From: a virus
Taxonomy: Duplodnaviria; Caudoviricetes
Length of the DNA: 45,614 bases
Direction: 5' to 3' (one strand)
Virus record (IMG/VR): IMGVR_UViG_3300005137_000013
Location: 1 to 45,614 of that record
The notes under the pieces are model-generated. The model did not search any database and was not told where the DNA came from. It was given only the letters and a program-made list of their open reading frames with translations. Made by a program: the position numbers and the translations under genes. Positions 5,684 through 44,181 of this stretch are shown here, one piece after another. Positions within the stretch are counted from its first letter, which is position 1, and every line of letters starts with the position of its first letter.

Positions 5684-5928
5684 AGCGAATTTCCTACGAA
5701 GAATCCGTCAGACTGACGCAGGAAATTCTCAGACAGCCACTTGGAAACTGGACGCACATGATCGACGGAAAGCCTGTCAGAGTTGTTGAACGCTGCATCG
5801 TAGGACGGCATGAATACGAGATCGTCTTTTTCCGCGCAGACGATTACTGCGGGCGTTGGATAGCGGAGCAGTTCGACAAGCGCGCGAAGCCGTATGTGCC
5901 GGAGCCGGAGCAAATGACGTTATGGTGA
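5680..5928 (+). CDS. Hypothetical phage protein
   Basis: GAGGAG RBS; ends EQMTLW, resembling a QLxLF-type clamp-binding tail. Confidence 0.6.
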   Translation: MKRISYEESVRLTQEILRQPLGNWTHMIDGKPVRVVERCIVGRHEYEIVFFRADDYCGRWIAEQFDKRAKPYVPEPEQMTLW

Positions 5929-6874
5929 GGGAGGGAAAAGGGATGGCAACGGTCAACGTCCTTTCCATCAGCGGGGGTAAAGACAGTACAGCTATGTGGC
6001 TGTACGCGTTGGAAACAAAACCGGAAGGTGATATTCTACCGGTTTTCGCAGACACAGGCCACGAACATCCGTTGACCTACGAATACCTGGACTATCTCGA
6101 ATCCAAGCTGGGGCCGATCCGGCGTATTAAAACAGACTTCTCGGAAGAAATCGCAAGAAAACGCGAATATGTACAAACGCATTGGCGCGAAGAAGGCGTA
6201 TCGGAAGAAATAATTCAACAAGCACTCGAAGTTTTGCAACCGACCGGGATTCCGTTTCTTGACTTGTGCTTATGGAAAGGGCGCTTCCCTTCAACGAAAG
6301 CACGTTTCTGCACTCAGTTTCTGAAAAGGGAGCCGGTATTCAACCAAATCTATTTGCCGCTGATGGATGAAGGAAAGCAGGTGGTTAGCTGGCAAGGCGT
6401 GAGAGCGCAGGAGAGTGCGGCCAGAGCAAAACTTCCGGAACGAGAAGAAACGCCAGAAGGATTCGAGATATACAGGCCGTTACTCAAATGGACAGTCGAA
6501 GATGTGTTCAACATCCACAAACGGCACGGAATTGAGCCGAATCCGTTGTATTTGCAAGGCATGTCCCGCGTTGGATGTATGCCCTGCATCAACTGCCAGA
6601 AATCCGAACTCTATGAGATCGCCAGAAGGTATCCGGAGGAAATTGAGCGCGTGGCGAAATGGGAAAAGATCGTCAGCAAGGCATCAAAACGAGCATCGGC
6701 AACATTTTTCTGTTCAACGAATGACTGGGGAGAAAACATTTACGAGGCCGTCGAGTGGTCGAAAACCGGATATGGGGGAAAGCAGTACGATCTTTTCAAA
6801 GTTGCTGGATTTGAGGATGTACCGGTATGTTCAAGCGTTTATGGACTGTGTGAATGAGGGAGGGAAAAGGGATG
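5926..6874 (+). repeat. Perfect 20-bp direct repeat flanking the PAPS-reductase gene
   Basis: TGAGGGAGGGAAAAGGGATG at 5926-5945 and 6855-6874. Confidence 0.9.
5943..6857 (+). CDS. Phosphoadenosine phosphosulfate (PAPS) reductase family protein
   Basis: SISGGKDS PP-loop, FADTGHE, RFCTQFLK, QGVRAQESAAR, PNPLY..GMSRVGCMPC. Confidence 0.9.
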   Translation: MATVNVLSISGGKDSTAMWLYALETKPEGDILPVFADTGHEHPLTYEYLDYLESKLGPIRRIKTDFSEEIARKREYVQTHWREEGVSEEIIQQALEVLQPTGIPFLDLCLWKGRFPSTKARFCTQFLKREPVFNQIYLPLMDEGKQVVSWQGVRAQESAARAKLPEREETPEGFEIYRPLLKWTVEDVFNIHKRHGIEPNPLYLQGMSRVGCMPCINCQKSELYEIARRYPEEIERVAKWEKIVSKASKRASATFFCSTNDWGENIYEAVEWSKTGYGGKQYDLFKVAGFEDVPVCSSVYGLCE

Positions 6875-7057
6875 AAGATTGTCCTGCTATGCTGGACATG
6901 CGGAAAAGAATATTCCGATGTACCGCTAAATGGTCCCTACAAATGCGAATGTGGCGGTTATGTGGTAAGTCCGAGCGGAAGGGTGCAGGGAAAATGGATC
7001 GCGGACGAGCGAACCGCATACGGTCAGGATTGTCCGGGCGGGCGCTGTGAATTTTAA
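6872..7057 (+). CDS. Small Zn-ribbon protein with C-terminal YGxDCPGGRC tail
   Basis: CWTC...CECGG; strong RBS. Confidence 0.7.
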   Translation: MKIVLLCWTCGKEYSDVPLNGPYKCECGGYVVSPSGRVQGKWIADERTAYGQDCPGGRCEF

Positions 7058-16089: not shown

Positions 16090-16326
16090 ATGAAACGCCG
16101 CGCACGCCGACTCAAACGAACGTTCACGGAACTGGATCATACACAGTGGCGCAAAGTGATGGACGAATACCGCTCTATGCGTCCGTATCGCGAAATTGAC
16201 TTGACCGAAGCGCTGGCGCGTGAGCAAGCGGAACGGGAATCATGTCGAACGCGCGTATATTGGGAGCGCACGTACCGGATCGAGGATTTGCCGCAGGAGG
16301 ATAAAGAGAGGTTGGGGCTAGGGTGA
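16090..16326 (+). CDS. Hypothetical phage protein
   Basis: ORF ending GTGA, coupled to the MTase start; start codon uncertain. Confidence 0.5.
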   Translation: MKRRARRLKRTFTELDHTQWRKVMDEYRSMRPYREIDLTEALAREQAERESCRTRVYWERTYRIEDLPQEDKERLGLG

Positions 16327-17315
16327 AGGCGTTAAGTCTGTTCAGCGGCATCGGTGGTATTGACTTGGCGTGTGAATGGGCCGGCATACAGACTGTAGCT
16401 TTCTGCGAAATCGAGCCGTTTTGTCAAAAGGTACTTCAAAAACATTGGCCACACATTCCAGTCTTTGACGACATCTGCAAATTAACCAAAGCCGAACTGG
16501 CAGCGAAAGGAGTGATCGACGATGTTCCCAACGGAAGTAGAACAATTGACATTATTTCCGGCGGGTACCCTTGACCATGCCAGCCTTTTAGTTACGCCGG
16601 GAAGCGACGAGGCGCGGAAGATGACCGCCACCTCTGGCCGGAAGTTAAGCGAATACTTGAGGAGATCAGACCCCGTTGGTTTGTTGGCGAGAATGTTGCT
16701 GGACACGTCACTTTGGGGCTCGACGACGTCCTTGCTGACCTGGAAAGCATCGGCTACACCGCGCAGGCGTTTGTTATTCCGGCTTGTGCCGTCGGTGCCC
16801 CGCACAGACGAGATCGAGTCTTTGTTGTGGCGCACGCCTCATGCGAATTGCTACACGGGAGCCAGGGAGTATGGAGAAGGCTGGATGAACATTCAGACAG
16901 CGGTGAAGATGTGGCCGACTCCACGATCGAGCGATGGAGAACACGGAGGACCGAATCAACGGGACAGCAGGGGGAACTATGCACTTCCAGGTGCGGTTCA
17001 TCATTCTCAAAGCGAACTAGCGGGCCAACTCAATCCGGAATGGGTGGAAGTGCTCATGAACTTTCCGCCGGGTTGGACGGAGGTATGAACCCGCTGGACG
17101 CACTGGCGGACTTCATCGCTTCTTATCCGCAACCGGCGCTGTTGGGACAACCGCAATACGATTGGGAACCGCCGCGGGTGGCAATCGGCGTAAAGAATCG
17201 AGTAGCGCGGCTGAAAGCGCTTGGAAATGCAGTTGATCCGTTGCAGATATTCCCGATCATGTATGCGATCAAGACCATAGATGACTTGTTGAATTGCGAG
17301 AAGGTGACGGCATGA
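16323..17315 (+). CDS. C5 cytosine DNA methyltransferase alpha chain (motifs I-VIII and X), with an in-frame TGA at 16572-16574
   Basis: SLFSGIGG (I), GGYP*PCQPFS (IV), ENV (VI), PHRRDRVF (VIII), LKALGNAV (X), all in one frame with a single internal stop. Confidence 0.85.
16522..17088 (+). CDS. Nested +1-frame MTase beta chain (carries motif IX)
   Basis: AAAGGAG RBS 9 nt before ATG; 188 codons open entirely inside the alpha gene; WPTP repeats; ends LNPEWVEVLMNFPPGWT (motif IX-like). Confidence 0.8.
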   Translation: MFPTEVEQLTLFPAGTLDHASLLVTPGSDEARKMTATSGRKLSEYLRRSDPVGLLARMLLDTSLWGSTTSLLTWKASATPRRRLLFRLVPSVPRTDEIESLLWRTPHANCYTGAREYGEGWMNIQTAVKMWPTPRSSDGEHGGPNQRDSRGNYALPGAVHHSQSELAGQLNPEWVEVLMNFPPGWTEV

Positions 17316-19413: not shown

Positions 19414-19824
19414 ATGAACAAAGCGATGGTTGTGGATCTGCTCAAAAATTTCCGGTGCTACGAATACGCGGCGATGAATTGCGGGCCGGCGGACGGTGCG
19501 ATGCCGTTGGTGATCTCCGAGCGAAAACGGAACCTGAACATGTGGGACAGGAGCCGGTATAACCGGATCGTGATTTTCATCCGCGGTGCCGTGGATCATT
19601 GTTTGAGTGATGATCAGCGAAAAATCATCACGCGTCGGTACTTAGACCGAAACCCGCAGTCGTTCAGTGAGATTGCCGTCGATATGTGTCGGGATCGCAA
19701 AACAGTATCCCGTTTGCACAATGACGCGATCAACCGGCTGAGCATTGCGCTGGAACCGCTGAGCGAGGATGAGACGGAGATCACGACGTTCCATCACATG
19801 TGGCAAGAAAAAATCCCCTCATGA
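19414..19824 (+). CDS. ArpU/RinA-like transcriptional regulator (sigma70 region 4-like HTH)
   Basis: LSDDQRKIITRRYL...SFSEIAVDMCRDRKTVSRLHNDAINRL. Confidence 0.8.
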   Translation: MNKAMVVDLLKNFRCYEYAAMNCGPADGAMPLVISERKRNLNMWDRSRYNRIVIFIRGAVDHCLSDDQRKIITRRYLDRNPQSFSEIAVDMCRDRKTVSRLHNDAINRLSIALEPLSEDETEITTFHHMWQEKIPS

Positions 19825-19841
19825 TGAGGGGGTTTTCTTTT
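19805..19841. terminator. Bidirectional intrinsic terminator containing both convergent stop codons
   Basis: AAGAAAAAAT-CCCCTCA-TGA-TGAGGGG-GTTTTCTTT. Confidence 0.75.
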
Positions 19842-20490
19842 CTTCCAGCTTGTCCAAATACGGCAGATGATATTTTTCCTCGGCGCGTTTTCTGGCTGCA
19901 GCAGCTTGCTCTATCGTTGGAAAAGTGCCAAGGTAGTAATTTTTTCCTTTAAGACAAATATAGGCAACATACGCATAACCCGATTTTCTTCGAACTCGCG
20001 AAACTCCTTTAACTCCAGAAGTATTGTTTTTTTGTAGTTTTTTTGTCAATGACGGAACAAATACACCCTCAATACGGAGATTCATTTCGTTGTATTCTTG
20101 TAATTCATATCCGCTGTCTTTCAATAAGCATCCACATGATTTTATAGCACCTTCTTTTAAGTGAACACCGTCGGCAATAGTTGTATTTCCGCATTCGCAT
20201 TGACAAACCCAAAAAACGTGACGGGATTTATAGGGTTTCGTCTCTGATTGTTTCACAACGGTTAATCTGCCAAAAACTTTTCCGGTTAAGTCGTCGGTGT
20301 TTGCTGCAAAACTTTTTTCTCGTTGATAGCATCCACAAGATTTTGTGTGACCAACACGCAAATTACTCATTGCGACAACGCGTTCGTTGCCGCAATCGCA
20401 TCGACACAACCATCGACGCGTATATCCTTTTCGCTCGACTTCTTTGATCACAACAAGACGGCCATAACGTTGACCTGTCAAGTCGATCAT
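19819..20490 (-). CDS. AP2-domain protein of the phage HNH/AP2 homing-endonuclease-associated family
   Basis: Two DLTG.x.GRL.V...W.C.C.CG...SCGC repeats plus NTSGVKGV...YLGTFPTIEQAAAARKRAE; lower GC. Confidence 0.85.
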   Translation of the reverse strand: MIDLTGQRYGRLVVIKEVERKGYTRRWLCRCDCGNERVVAMSNLRVGHTKSCGCYQREKSFAANTDDLTGKVFGRLTVVKQSETKPYKSRHVFWVCQCECGNTTIADGVHLKEGAIKSCGCLLKDSGYELQEYNEMNLRIEGVFVPSLTKKLQKNNTSGVKGVSRVRRKSGYAYVAYICLKGKNYYLGTFPTIEQAAAARKRAEEKYHLPYLDKLEEKKTPSS

Positions 20491-40508: not shown

Positions 40509-40521
40509 AGGGGGAATGCAG

Positions 40522-43500
40522 ATGAGCAAGTATGATGCCGAGAGAAAAAAACTCGGCCTCGCGCCTATCGGGGATGAGGGGAAATCCACAGAACAGACCA
40601 AAAGCAAGTACGACAAAGAACGCATGAAACTCGGACTCATCCCCGACACGCGATCAACCCAAGAAAGGTTGGCCGATTTCGAAGCGAGCCAGCCTATGAT
40701 TGCACAGTCTCCCTTCTACCAATCGCTAGGCGACCCGCGCGGTATCACGGGCATCATGCGCGACCGCGTGGATCAAATTGCGGAAGAACGCCGTCCGCCT
40801 GAGACGCCGCAAATTCTCCCGCGTGATCCGACCAAAACATACTTGACGCCGGAACAAGTAACCGACCCGGAAGTGCGGAAAGAGATCGACCGTTATAAAC
40901 CCTACACCGGTACACCAAAAAGCCCGGCGGATCAACTCGTTTCCGGACTCGCCAATACGGTGATGCTTGGTGTACCTAACGCACTAACGCAAGGTGAAGC
41001 CGCGAGGGATACGAATACACCCGCCGGAATCGCCGGACAAATTGCTGGTGAAGTGCTTGGATTTGGTGTCGTTCAACGATTGACCCGTCCTATCGCAGAC
41101 GCAGCGGTAAGACGGGTAGTGGGTGAATCCACAGGCAAATTGGGCCAAAAAGTCGCGGAAGGAGCCATTCGCGGCGGGATTGCCGAAGGTGCATTTGCTA
41201 CGGCTCAAGAGCTTGCTGATGTGGCGATGGACACGCGCCGGAATGAGAACGAATCCATTGGTCAACGTCTCGGGAATGTGGCGCTGCGCACCGGTTTAGG
41301 GGCAGGGTTGGAAGCCGGGAGAATCGCTTTAGGAGGGGCGATACAAAAAGGGCTTTCGTCACTGGCGCGCCGACAAGCGGATGAAGCTGCCACGATAGCC
41401 ACCAGAAGTGCGGAACCGACAACGACGAAAACCGCTCAAACACAAACTCAGGTTGCCGAAGAATCCGCTCAACCCGTCCGCCAAGGATGGTTTGAACGAT
41501 TGTTTGGCACTCAGCCTTTGGGGATCGTCGCGCGCCTCTCCAGAGGCGGTAGAAACCCGCTGACGACGGAAGGGCAGATCGTAGATACCCCGATCAAGCG
41601 AACCGTTTCAGGAGCGAAAGAAACAGCGCAGGCCGCTGCGAGAGCCGCTTATAACGATCTGGTGGATATGGTAAATCCGCTGAAAAAGATCAGCCCGAAG
41701 GCTTACGACGCCGCTATAGACGCGGCGAGAGCAAACCAAATCGCAAACGTCATTATCACGGATAAGTTTGTGAATCTGCAAGGACAGGTAATAGGCGAAG
41801 GCCTACAAAACATCATACGCAAGGCCGGACGCGGTAACTATAACGCCTTCACGGATTATCTGATTGCACGCCATGCTTTAACCCGTATGCAACGCGGAGA
41901 ACGGGTATATGCTGAACATTTGCAAATGACGCCTGAGAAAGTGGCAGAACGCATCCGAACATTGGAACAACGCTACCCAGGTTTCCGCGAAATCGCGCGC
42001 GAATGGGACCAATACTTCAAGAACATCCGCGAAGTGTACGGCGTGGAGGAAGGTTTGATTTCCCGCGAATTGGCCGACTACCTGGAAAAACACAACCCGA
42101 CGTATGCGCCGATGCGCCGTCAGTTTACGGATGCGGAGAAGATTAAACAGTACACGGGACAGCGGCAAATGTTCAGCGGGCAGAAAGCGCCGATTAAAGA
42201 AGTCAGCCCAACCGGTTCGGCACGCAAGATCGTCGATCCGGTACGTTCTACGATCGAGCAAACCGGCGCATGGGTGCAAGCCGCCATGAGAAACCGCGTT
42301 ATGCGTGAAATCGTGGATCGTATCCTTCAAAACTCGGAGGACATGAAGGGGATCGCGGAGATTGTCCAGCCTCCAAAGGGAAGTCCGAATCTGCGTGAAC
42401 TGATCGAGAAGGAAGGCGAAGATGGATTCCTGGAAAACCTTGCCGATGACTTCAATAAACTGTTCCAGCGCCAGCGCGTGGACAAAGACAACATCGTGAG
42501 AGCTATGGTGAACGGCCAACCGGTTTACGTCAAAGTCCACGATCCCGAAGTACTGAAAACCTTGCTCGGATTGGGTGCGGACAACGCTGGTCTGGTCTTA
42601 CGCACCATGACCGCGTTCAGCAACGCGATTAAGCGCGGCGCAACCGGTGCGCTGGCTCCGCTGTTTGCGGTCAAAAGCGCGACGATGGATGTGGCGCAAG
42701 CACTCATTCAATCGAAAAACCCGTTGCAACACGCCGGATATTTGATGGGGTCTGTCGTTTCCTCCATTGCCGACGCGCTGAACATCCCGGTACTACGCAA
42801 CATGGCGCAGGACTTCTACCGTGCCGGCGGTGGATATTCGGCAGCTTTACGCGGCGAACGCGGTCTGCGTCGCAGCATCAGTTCTATGCGACTTGATCCA
42901 TTGTTAAGCCCGCGCACACTCGCAAAAGCATCGGTAAGAACAATCGCCGCGCCGTATCGTGCATCTCTCAAAATCGCGGATATTGCCGAAAACATGAACC
43001 GGATCGCGGCGTTTCATCATCGATTGCGTCAACTCGGCGGCGAACGGACACCGGAAAATATCCGTGATGCGATGAATTACGCGAGAGAAATCACCATCAA
43101 TTACAGCCGGAAAGGCAGACAATCCAAACTCTTAGAAGCGTTGATTCCTTACAATAACGCCGCCATACAGGGATTGTACCGGTTTGCCAAAGCATGGAAG
43201 AAAAATCCGGTCAAGACAACGGCGATGGTAACACTGACGGTTTTGGCGCCGAAATTCTACGAGTACATGCAGTTTCATGACGATCCAGATTACAATAACC
43301 TTCCTGCGCGGGAGAGATACCGGAATCTGTATCTGTCCAAGAATGCCGACGGGACGTTTAACAAAATCCCTCTCTCGCCGGAATACAACGCATTGGGGGC
43401 GCTTATGGTGGATATGCTCCGGGCATGGAAAGACGGCGACCCAGAAGCATTCAAGGGCGCGTCTGACGCCTTAATGAACGCCTATACACCGCCTCTTGTT

Positions 43501-44181
43501 TCTGGTCTGGCTCAAGGCTTCACCCAAGGCGGTGGAATTGATCAAAGCCTTGCAGGTGCGGCAAACGCTACATCTCTTGCACCACTCGCAGCGGTCATGG
43601 CGAATCAAAGTTTCACCGGCGCACCCATCGACTCGCGGAAAGTCGAAGACCGCTCGCCGCAGTATCGTTACGATGAGCGCACGTCTTCGATAGCCAAATG
43701 GCTAGGAGAACAACTGAAATGGTCGCCGATGAAGATTGACTATGTGCTGCGCGCCTACGGCGGCGACCCGGCGCGGATTCTCTTGCCTCTCACATCCGAA
43801 GTCGGACGAGGAACGACGAGGAACACGCTGCTTCGTAACTGGATTACCGACCCGGTATTTACCAACACGCTCACGGATGACTACTACCGTGGAAAAGAAG
43901 CGCTCACTCAAGCGTATCGGGATCATCAAGAGGCCGGAGCACCGTTGCCGGAATGGTACGACGATAGCCTGCGCCGTATGATGACTTCGACCGCTGCCGG
44001 TTCGGTAACGAAACGCCTGAGCGCATTGACCGAACAGAAACGTCAGGTGAATCTGGATCGTTCGTTGAGCGCGGAAGAAAAAGCGCAAAAGCTACGTGAC
44101 ATTCAGCGTCAAATGAACGAAATCTACATCGATGTTAACACGCGGATGCGCGAAGCTGGCGTGCCGATGTTGAGTAGGTGA
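40522..44181 (+). CDS. Large internal virion/ejection protein (LPD38-like C-terminal region)
   Basis: About 1220 aa; ENMNRIAAF...AREITINYSRKG...IPYNNAAIQGLYR, NQSFTGAPI, WSPMKIDYVLRAYGG. Confidence 0.8.
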   Translation: MSKYDAERKKLGLAPIGDEGKSTEQTKSKYDKERMKLGLIPDTRSTQERLADFEASQPMIAQSPFYQSLGDPRGITGIMRDRVDQIAEERRPPETPQILPRDPTKTYLTPEQVTDPEVRKEIDRYKPYTGTPKSPADQLVSGLANTVMLGVPNALTQGEAARDTNTPAGIAGQIAGEVLGFGVVQRLTRPIADAAVRRVVGESTGKLGQKVAEGAIRGGIAEGAFATAQELADVAMDTRRNENESIGQRLGNVALRTGLGAGLEAGRIALGGAIQKGLSSLARRQADEAATIATRSAEPTTTKTAQTQTQVAEESAQPVRQGWFERLFGTQPLGIVARLSRGGRNPLTTEGQIVDTPIKRTVSGAKETAQAAARAAYNDLVDMVNPLKKISPKAYDAAIDAARANQIANVIITDKFVNLQGQVIGEGLQNIIRKAGRGNYNAFTDYLIARHALTRMQRGERVYAEHLQMTPEKVAERIRTLEQRYPGFREIAREWDQYFKNIREVYGVEEGLISRELADYLEKHNPTYAPMRRQFTDAEKIKQYTGQRQMFSGQKAPIKEVSPTGSARKIVDPVRSTIEQTGAWVQAAMRNRVMREIVDRILQNSEDMKGIAEIVQPPKGSPNLRELIEKEGEDGFLENLADDFNKLFQRQRVDKDNIVRAMVNGQPVYVKVHDPEVLKTLLGLGADNAGLVLRTMTAFSNAIKRGATGALAPLFAVKSATMDVAQALIQSKNPLQHAGYLMGSVVSSIADALNIPVLRNMAQDFYRAGGGYSAALRGERGLRRSISSMRLDPLLSPRTLAKASVRTIAAPYRASLKIADIAENMNRIAAFHHRLRQLGGERTPENIRDAMNYAREITINYSRKGRQSKLLEALIPYNNAAIQGLYRFAKAWKKNPVKTTAMVTLTVLAPKFYEYMQFHDDPDYNNLPARERYRNLYLSKNADGTFNKIPLSPEYNALGALMVDMLRAWKDGDPEAFKGASDALMNAYTPPLVSGLAQGFTQGGGIDQSLAGAANATSLAPLAAVMANQSFTGAPIDSRKVEDRSPQYRYDERTSSIAKWLGEQLKWSPMKIDYVLRAYGGDPARILLPLTSEVGRGTTRNTLLRNWITDPVFTNTLTDDYYRGKEALTQAYRDHQEAGAPLPEWYDDSLRRMMTSTAAGSVTKRLSALTEQKRQVNLDRSLSAEEKAQKLRDIQRQMNEIYIDVNTRMREAGVPMLSR

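What the first reader, a model, noticed from the sequence alone, without database searches (positions are those of the whole stretch)
16323..16620. Candidate ribosomal stop-hop (CCT-TGA-CCA) that would exactly rebuild the MTase catalytic motif
Seen: the MTase frame reads GGG TAC CCT TGA CCA TGC CAG CCT TTT AGT (G-Y-P-stop-P-C-Q-P-F-S) and then stays open to 17315 with motifs VI, VIII and X intact. Relative to canonical motif IV (GxPCQxFS) there are exactly 6 extra nt: a stop plus a second Pro codon. Established: ribosomes can hop over a stop flanked by codons read by the same tRNA (the CUU-UAG-CUA stop-hop type), and tRNA-Pro(UGG) with modified U34 can read CCU and CCA. Inference: a hop from CCU to CCA yields precisely GGYPCQPFS, whereas readthrough would put two extra residues next to the catalytic Cys. 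The 6-nt insert also keeps the overlapping +1 gene in frame. This could be programmed bypassing that throttles MTase level and would normally be mis-annotated as a pseudogene.
Basis: partly seen in the sequence, partly recalled or inferred. Interest (0 to 1): 0.9.

Follow-up and report, generated by a model that had tools for sequence, protein, structure and literature searches.

The report
Widespread stop-hop gap in phage methylases
This prophage's DNA methylase gene, like well over a hundred other distinct phage copies, carries a tiny stop-containing insert between its catalytic proline and cysteine codons that ribosomes likely hop over, and the insert probably shields the gene from a selfish DNA-cutting gene that travels with it in relatives.

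Summary
The C5-methyltransferase frame 16323-17315 reads Pro(CCT)-TGA-Pro(CCA)-Cys at 16569-16580. In scans that allowed any two inserted codons at this site, the first was a stop in 60 of 60 viral and 117 of 117 metagenome loci, using all three stops. Among 152 distinct carriers, gaps are 6, 7, 9, 10 or 15 nt, and the triplet before Cys always has C or T second. The 7- and 10-nt gaps rule out readthrough as the general mechanism. Both gene halves stay under purifying selection like uninterrupted relatives. An HTH-HNH endonuclease lies just upstream in 45 of 80 carriers and 0 of 125 uninterrupted genes, including two of the window's kin; the window itself lacks it. Best reading: a natural ribosomal stop-hop that likely gives immunity to a homing endonuclease, a minimal counterpart of T4 gene 60/MobA. 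No protein or cleavage data exist, so hop and immunity are inferred. The scan noted such gaps before on other DNA (e1-7845208 as a hop, e1-6460413 as an off switch); my searches of papers found no description.

The parts
16323..16571 (+). C5-methyltransferase large (alpha) chain, part before the gap: motifs I-III up to the Pro of motif IV (83 codons)
   Evidence: PF00145 profile 1-70, E 2.2e-11; translation
16569..16571 (+). Predicted take-off codon CCT (Pro)
   Evidence: Sequence; CCC is almost absent at this position in carriers, 2 of 151 against 38 of 114 random uninterrupted genes
16572..16577 (+). 6-nt coding gap: stop TGA plus predicted landing codon CCA
   Evidence: Sequence; stop first in 60/60 and 117/117 two-codon inserts; gap lengths 6-15 nt in relatives
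16578..17315 (+). Alpha chain after the gap: catalytic Cys, motifs VI, VIII and X; no conventional in-frame start before TTG 16713, which lies past motif VI
   Evidence: PF00145 profile 70-163, E 3.4e-23; phrog_363 E 7e-51; start-codon scan; purifying selection
16522..17088 (+). Nested +1 ORF, 188 aa: predicted small (beta) chain with target-recognition region and motif IX-like end; AAGGAG at 16507-16512 precedes its ATG
   Evidence: phrog_1008 DNA methyltransferase E 1.2e-31; annotated as a second internal methyltransferase gene in phages BN12 and Lily; for the SD

Best explanation
The 6 nt are a coding gap that ribosomes likely hop, and the gap probably serves as an immunity mark against an HNH homing endonuclease that would cut the uninterrupted motif IV sequence. 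Shown: the gap, its recurrence, its variable length, the constraint on its first and last triplet, selection on both gene halves, and the link with two HNH families. Inferred steps: (1) the ribosome stalls with peptidyl-tRNA-Pro on CCT and the slow Pro-stop in the A site; (2) most ribosomes terminate, but some release the codon, slide 6 nt and re-pair on CCA; (3) decoding resumes at TGC, giving a normal G-Y-P-C-Q catalytic loop; (4) this alpha chain pairs with the nested beta chain to methylate DNA at a reduced level; (5) in relatives an HTH-HNH nuclease, encoded just upstream or in frame between motifs III and IV, would nick uninterrupted alleles in co-infections and copy the cassette in, while the gap spoils its own site without changing an invariant protein motif. 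In this prophage the nuclease is absent, so the gap would be left over after nuclease loss or picked up alone by short-tract conversion.
For: Stop first in 60/60 viral and 117/117 metagenome two-codon inserts, with TGA 62, TAA 53, TAG 34 among 152 distinct carriers; uninterrupted genes are about 150-fold commoner (est. 9,100 against 60). Gaps of 7 nt (9 carriers) and 10 nt (1) break the frame yet end in a Pro-like triplet right before Cys. Second base of that triplet is C 103, T 49, never A or G; 30 inferred changes on the tree are all C-T, while C changes at fourfold sites are transitions in only 30 of 109; this fits G-U wobble with a GG anticodon. CCC take-off is depleted (2/151 against 38/114), and CCC_UGA is known to be +1 shift-prone and Pro-stop slow to terminate (PMC3082878 passages). 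dN/dS of carrier pairs 0.10 before and 0.24 after the gap, against 0.08 and 0.27 in uninterrupted pairs; after the beta stop pN 0.18 against pS 0.80. 270 of 273 carrier loci stay open at least 85 codons past Cys. In one all-carrier clade HNH and downstream methylase distances co-vary (rho 0.83, p 0.0005, 10 rows) with dN/dS 0.30, so selection acted with the stop in place. HNH within 800 nt upstream in 45/80 carriers, 0/125 uninterrupted genes. Loci picked by HNH alone: 52 of 63 distinct loci with the HNH upstream of motif IV have the stop gap, 2 have an intact canonical motif (counted by hand from its table). 106 of the top 120 HNH-family-1 proteins end at or within one residue of G-[FY]-P. 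Precedent: T4 gene 60 bypass cassette blocks MobA nicking and outlives the nuclease (bioRxiv 2022.08.31.505936 Discussion).
Against: No protein, ribosome-profiling, methylation or cleavage data. No dedicated stimulatory signal found: anti-SD pairing upstream does not differ (p 0.23) and no conserved hairpin, so efficiency may be low. 74 of 152 landing triplets are not Pro codons, 9 of them without a simple single wobble explanation (GCG 4, ACN 4, TTA 1). Three carriers put a sense codon between Pro and the stop (CGA, CAA), as do 10 of 120 proteins; L602, L607 and P0004-P0006 have frame-breaking gaps with no stop in frame; L576 has His in place of the take-off Pro. These need a looser hop than the simple model. 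Two HNH loci keep an intact canonical motif (L588, L656). 35 of 80 carriers, and the window, have no HNH of these families nearby. The nested beta frame overlaps the gap and could add constraints on the landing triplet. The HNH cut site was not located.
Confidence: 0.62

Rival explanations
1. The hop is real, but the gap is kept to throttle or regulate methylase level; the HNH link is historical.
For: 35 of 80 carriers and the window lack a nearby HNH of the two families yet keep the stop; the stop swaps among TAA, TAG and TGA and never turns sense. The MobA preprint also raises a second function for limited bypassing.
Against: No regulatory signal found; about 99% of such genes do without the gap; none of 125 uninterrupted genes has the HNH. 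A stop could also be kept simply because the hop needs it.
Confidence: 0.13
2. The gap switches the methylase off or nearly off: homing debris or the HNH gene's own stop codon, with only background leak.
For: In family-1 carriers the stop is the end of an HNH ORF with its own SD and ATG. The methylase is dispensable: contigs in two runs lack the whole gene. Divergence between carriers could predate the gap if it spreads by homing; the window's nearest row on the tree is uninterrupted. An earlier scan note read a 9-nt case this way (e1-6460413).
Against: Selection on both halves equals that of intact genes, also in all-carrier clades where HNH and methylase co-diverged; 270/273 stay open; the stop persists where the HNH is a separate upstream gene and does not need it; the landing triplet is constrained.
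Confidence: 0.1
3. The 6 nt are removed or skipped before translation: RNA polymerase slippage, RNA splicing, or DNA-level reversion in part of the population.
For: The gap is flanked by CC-starting near-repeats; gap-free alleles occur in related DNA. No RNA run holds the region, so it could not be examined.
Against: Slippage needs Watson-Crick repeats, yet half of the landing triplets differ from CC in the way a tRNA tolerates (C to T); gaps vary from 6 to 15 nt with no intron-like ends; no Rfam match. The one run that holds the whole stretch shows no gap-free form, though contigs drop rare variants.
Confidence: 0.05
4. Three-piece enzyme: the part before the stop is one chain and a second chain starts at or near the landing triplet by non-canonical reinitiation.
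For: C5-methylases tolerate splitting (PMC3404938 passage); a few landing triplets (CTG, ACG) can act as weak starts (recalled); Gly-Gly codons upstream resemble an SD.
Against: Most landing triplets (CCA, CCT, CCC, CTA, TCA) are not start codons; first conventional in-frame start in the window lies past motif VI; the split would fall between the two residues of the catalytic Pro-Cys; no SD enrichment.
Confidence: 0.05
5. Stop-codon readthrough (suppression, recoded genetic code or selenocysteine) adds two residues before the catalytic Cys.
For: 134 of 152 gaps are 6 nt and in frame; stops followed by C are weak (context effect cited).
Against: All three stops are used; 0 of 177 inserts have a sense codon in place of the stop; 7- and 10-nt gaps are out of frame; some 9-nt gaps hold two stops; TGA ends both chains in the window; no tRNA gene in the window.
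Confidence: 0.03

Closest known systems
T4 gene 60 translational bypass cassette with the MobA homing endonuclease (bioRxiv 2022.08.31.505936: abstract, Discussion part 1 and section 16 read; PMC5009743 passages)
   Same: Non-coding gap starting with a stop right after the take-off codon, at an invariant residue of a phage enzyme; take-off and landing triplets readable by one tRNA; linked to a homing endonuclease that is often lost while the gap stays.
   Different: Gap is 6-15 nt rather than about 50; no stem-loop, mini-SD or nascent-peptide signal found here; Pro rather than Gly or Asp; host gene is a C5-methylase of mostly temperate phages; two HNH families in two layouts; nothing here is tested at the bench.
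Synthetic 'stop hop' (9 nt specify one amino acid), as described in PMC5009743 and bioRxiv 2024.12.09.627546 passages
   Same: The window's CCT-TGA-CCA is exactly this arrangement.
   Different: Those were constructs with low-level hopping; the 2016 review states that no natural in-frame stop hop was known. Here it would be natural and needed for the gene's product.
Streptomyces phage Hau3 / StrepC.1 terminase bypassing (PMC10732093 passages)
   Same: Short (7-10 nt) frame-breaking gaps in a phage gene; bypass shown by mass spectrometry in E. coli when the gap's first codon was made a stop.
   Different: Natural trigger there is the hungry codon UUA and the proposed role is developmental; three genes known; no endonuclease link in the passages read.
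M.EcoHK31I two-chain C5-methyltransferase (PMC3404938 passage)
   Same: Large chain with motifs I-VIII and X, small chain with motif IX; in the window the small chain is nested in another frame.
   Different: No stop in motif IV is described; in the window the target-recognition-like repeats seem to lie in the small chain.
ShiLan 'hidden HNH' insertion in actinophage methylases (PMC11855218: abstract and passages)
   Same: HNH endonuclease homing into phage methylase genes without intron or intein; related free-standing HNH genes upstream of methylases.
   Different: ShiLan adds no stop and is read through; the word bypass does not occur in that text. Here the self-protecting element is a separate stop gap at motif IV.

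Membership tests
Programmed translational bypassing | One polypeptide made from two ORFs with the gap skipped | not testable with these tools
   Needs reporter or mass spectrometry; no RNA holder listed
Programmed translational bypassing | Stop or slow codon directly 3' of the take-off codon | tested here: met
   Window TGA; 149 of 152 carriers; exceptions CAA 2, CGA 1, plus stop-less gaps L602, L607
Programmed translational bypassing | Take-off and landing triplets readable by the same tRNA | tested here: met
   Window CCT/CCA; 78 of 152 CCN, 65 single C-to-T changes, 9 poorer. That one tRNA-Pro of this host reads both is recalled wobble knowledge, not tested
Programmed translational bypassing | Both ORFs under purifying selection | tested here: met
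T4 gene 60 type cassette | Take-off stem-loop, mini-SD, long AU-rich gap, nascent-peptide signal | tested here: not met
   Gap 6 nt; no SD-energy difference; no conserved hairpin; nascent peptide not tested
Homing endonuclease plus immunity insert (MobA-like) | Endonuclease gene linked to the insert | tested here: inconclusive
   Met for the family (45/80 against 0/125) but not in the window itself
Homing endonuclease plus immunity insert (MobA-like) | Nuclease cuts gap-free but not gap-bearing alleles | not testable with these tools
   Needs a cleavage assay
Homing endonuclease plus immunity insert (MobA-like) | Patchy distribution among close relatives | tested here: met
   43 state changes on a 385-row FastTree against 105-120 shuffled; carriers interleave with intact genes near the window, though one clade is not rejected (p-AU 0.07)
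EcoHK31I-type two-chain C5-methylase | Motif IX on a second chain, motifs I-VIII and X on the large chain | tested here: met
   motif IX assignment of the beta C-terminus is by recalled motif and PHROG match
EcoHK31I-type two-chain C5-methylase | Both chains needed for methylation | not testable with these tools
   No assay
Stop readthrough / selenocysteine / alternative code | One specific stop, always in frame | tested here: not met
   All three stops, 7- and 10-nt gaps; no tRNA or Rfam hit in the window

The most novel reading that the evidence does not exclude
Phage C5-methylases host a widespread, minimal 'translational intron': a 6-15 nt stop-hop gap inside the catalytic Pro-Cys motif that lets HNH homing endonucleases of two families spread through an invariant active-site sequence without introns or inteins. 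It would be the first large natural family of in-frame stop hops, with more than 150 natural variants that map what re-pairing a bacterial ribosome accepts.
Probability: 0.55. Interest if true: 0.9.

Novelty: new variant of a known kind. Interest (0 to 1): 0.82.

Why it matters
Natural ribosomal bypassing has very few known cases (T4 gene 60 and kin, yeast mitochondrial byps, Streptomyces phage terminases), and a 2016 review says no natural in-frame stop hop was known. This family would supply hundreds, in a 9-nt element that is simple to test, with natural variation in take-off codon, stop, gap length and landing codon. It would add a way, beside introns, inteins and read-through inserts, for homing endonucleases to protect their own site in a sequence that cannot change at protein level. 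It also means these genes are being annotated as pseudogenes or two fragments when they may encode active methylases.

Tried and rejected
Longer gaps of 20-30 nt from the variable-gap scan were chance matches to the Leu-Phe-Pro start of the nested beta gene; that scan covered 23 of 64 parts and showed no 3-nt insert. Ten sense-codon matches among 22 genome loci are not methylases: none has motif VI, and L193 was checked by translation; I dropped them from the counts. An RF2-like internal SD was not supported (p 0.23). An apparent upstream hairpin excess vanished against random controls. No RNA holder listed, so expression is untested. Logan contigs in runs X7 and X4 cover the gap without a deletion but fall short of the 31-letter bridging rule on one side, so I do not count them; X1 and L489 are identical to the window and may be its source. 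No tRNA, no Rfam family. No HNH of families 1 or 2 in the window genome. A search for full-length HNH-methylase fusions with an intact motif found none among 4 hits of 86 candidates, which the tool calls weak evidence. I ran no structure prediction, since a model would not tell a hop from readthrough. Literature searches found no description of this gap; the library lacks most subscription journals, and I read no supplements (bioRxiv ones are closed), so a mention there cannot be excluded.

Full report
Setting. The window is a whole 45.6 kb provirus record with a serine recombinase, replication, terminase and portal genes. Its nearest annotated matches are Paenibacillus phages. The finding lies in a cytosine methyltransferase gene between the replication module and a DUF1064 nuclease gene.

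Observation. From GTG 16323 the frame reads G-G-Y-P-stop-P-C-Q-P-F-S, with CCT 16569-71, TGA 16572-74, CCA 16575-77 and TGC 16578-80, and then runs to TGA 17313-15. Both halves match PF00145 and abut on the profile at position 70. A nested +1 ORF, 16522-17088, matches a methyltransferase PHROG, and phages BN12 and Lily have the same internal gene annotated. This two-chain layout resembles M.EcoHK31I (PMC3404938 passage) and is not new. After the stop, the first conventional in-frame start lies past motif VI, so no ordinary restart can supply the catalytic Cys.

Recurrence. Of the 80 closest viral loci only L004 has the insert. A scan for any two inserted codons between Pro and Cys gave 60 viral loci, all with a stop first, and 117 metagenome loci from 37 of 64 parts, all with a stop first. 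In GTDB 12 of 22 loci had the stop; the other ten are not methylases. Carriers include prophages of two Paenibacillus species, Clostridia and other bacteria. The uninterrupted pattern was estimated at about 9,100 viral stretches from 1 of 64 parts, so under 1% carry the gap. After clustering at 97% there are 152 distinct carriers: first gap codon TGA 62, TAA 53, TAG 34, CAA 2, CGA 1; gap length 6 nt in 134, 7 in 9, 9 in 7, 10 in 1, 15 in 1.

What the gap allows. The last gap triplet starts CC in 78, CT in 48, TC in 17, GC in 4, AC in 4 and TT in 1. Its second base is never A or G. On a FastTree of 138 carriers 30 changes at that base are all C-T, whereas only 30 of 109 fourfold-site differences involving C are transitions. 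The tree is noisy, those sites are near saturation, and the beta frame overlaps the gap, but ten carriers without an open beta frame obey the same rule. C-to-T is what a GG anticodon tolerates by G-U wobble and what polymerase slippage would not; that is my inference. CCC is avoided at take-off (2 of 151 against 38 of 114 random uninterrupted genes). Passages of PMC3082878 say that CCC_UGA is +1 shift-prone and that Pro before a stop slows termination. Gaps of 7 and 10 nt, and 9-nt gaps with two stops, cannot be read through into the catalytic frame but can be hopped.

Selection. For non-overlapping pairs of carriers dN/dS is 0.10 in motifs I-III (28 pairs) and 0.24 in motifs IV-VIII (34 pairs), against 0.08 and 0.27 for uninterrupted pairs. 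Past the beta stop, where no second frame overlaps, pN is 0.18 against pS 0.80 (7 pairs). The uninterrupted set was required to show motif VI, which favours intact controls. Of 273 carrier loci with enough DNA, 270 stay open for 85 codons or more. Because homing could drop a gap into alleles that had already diverged, I tested three all-carrier clades: dN/dS 0.30, 0.21 and 0.19, with HNH and downstream methylase distances correlated in the two that could be tested (rho 0.83, p 0.0005; rho 0.37, p 0.02), while stops and landing codons changed within the clades.

The endonuclease link. Many carriers have about 135 extra residues in frame between motifs III and IV. This insert has its own SD and ATG, an HTH and an HNH-type nuclease domain (phrog_2340 E 2e-20, phrog_8446), and it ends at the motif IV stop. 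A second family, HTH plus Pfam HNH_3, stands free directly upstream of the methylase in other carriers, among them L004 and L180, kin of the window. Leaving out loci that were fetched by their HNH, 45 of 80 carriers with 800 nt upstream have one of the two families, against 0 of 125 uninterrupted genes (Fisher p 3e-16 against the 70 random ones, not corrected for kinship). A tree-aware test for family 1 gave 6.8 pairs in the same direction and none opposite (median p 0.016, HNH-picked rows included). In the reverse test, of 160 loci fetched by HNH similarity alone, 63 distinct ones have the HNH upstream of a methylase motif IV: 52 with the stop gap, 3 with other gaps, 6 with a different motif sequence, 2 intact (hand count; some are the contigs that supplied the queries). 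Of the best 120 family-1 proteins, 96 end at G-[FY]-P and 10 one residue later (length-limited), and none of 4 longer hits has an intact motif. The window has neither family.

History. Stop and non-stop genes change state 43 times on a 385-row FastTree, against 105-120 when shuffled: clustered, but on many branches. Near the window, carriers interleave with intact genes and the nearest row is intact (88% identity), although a single carrier clade is not rejected (p-AU 0.07). Gain and loss cannot be told apart.

Mechanism. I commit to a stop-hop by peptidyl-tRNA-Pro, kept because the gap spoils the target of a homing HNH while the ribosome restores an invariant motif. The hop is inferred from comparative constraints (about 0.75 to 0.8 on its own). 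Immunity is inferred from the linkage and by analogy with T4 gene 60, where the bypass insert blocks MobA nicking and often outlives the nuclease (bioRxiv 2022.08.31.505936, Discussion part 1 read). Lower methylase output would be a side effect.

Against. There are no expression data. I found no stimulatory SD or hairpin. Carriers prefer GGC or GGG for the Gly before take-off (133 of 151 against 35 of 114) and TTC for Phe, which I cannot explain. A minority have a sense codon before the stop, no stop in frame, or a non-Pro take-off. A passage of bioRxiv 2024.12.09.627546 says low-level resumption can occur without pairing, which may cover them, but they weaken the strict model. Two HNH loci keep an intact motif.

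Known work. PMC5009743 (2016, passages) states that no natural in-frame stop hop was known. PMC10732093 (passages) shows short-gap bypassing for Hau3 terminase. PMC11855218 (abstract and passages) describes HNH homing into phage methylases without any stop. Eight searches found no account of this gap. Earlier notes of this scan saw single cases on other DNA, one read as a hop and one as an off switch; in the lines shown neither mentions an endonuclease, and they are not independent support.

Verdict. A real, widespread and selected feature; most likely a natural stop-hop tied to HNH homing; a new variant of translational bypassing. Interest 0.82.

Noticed in passing
window 16319-17313: Contigs in runs X2 and X3 join these two positions with one base between: related phages lack the whole methylase gene, so it is an accessory module.
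   Followed up: no
window 19819-20490 (-): An HNH endonuclease gene of another family (phrog_374, E 1.7e-52) lies 3.2 kb downstream on the opposite strand; not matched by the two methylase-linked profiles. Its target is unknown.
   Followed up: partly
L443, L440, L450, L471, L570: The family-1 HNH lies out of frame inside the methylase, whose own frame stays open across it for more than 100 codons, like the published ShiLan layout.
   Followed up: partly
L602:1900-2000, L607:1900-1960, proteins P0004-P0006: Frame-breaking gaps after G-F-P with no stop in frame; in L607 and the three proteins ordinary reading runs into the beta chain. Possible hungry-codon or stop-free hop, or decay.
   Followed up: partly
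L643, L645-L647, L651, L657-L661, L592, L606, L609: HNH genes of the same families lie about 350-550 nt downstream of an uninterrupted motif IV, suggesting a second insertion site in these methylases.
   Followed up: no
L437:1301-1316: With a 7-nt gap the stop overlaps an ATG in the beta frame (ATGA), so termination could be coupled to beta initiation.
   Followed up: no
window 5856-6857 and 40516-44181: A PAPS-reductase-domain gene and a 1221-aa LPD38 polyvalent protein; an unannotated 211-codon ORF overlaps the former (6415-7050, no PHROG hit).
   Followed up: no
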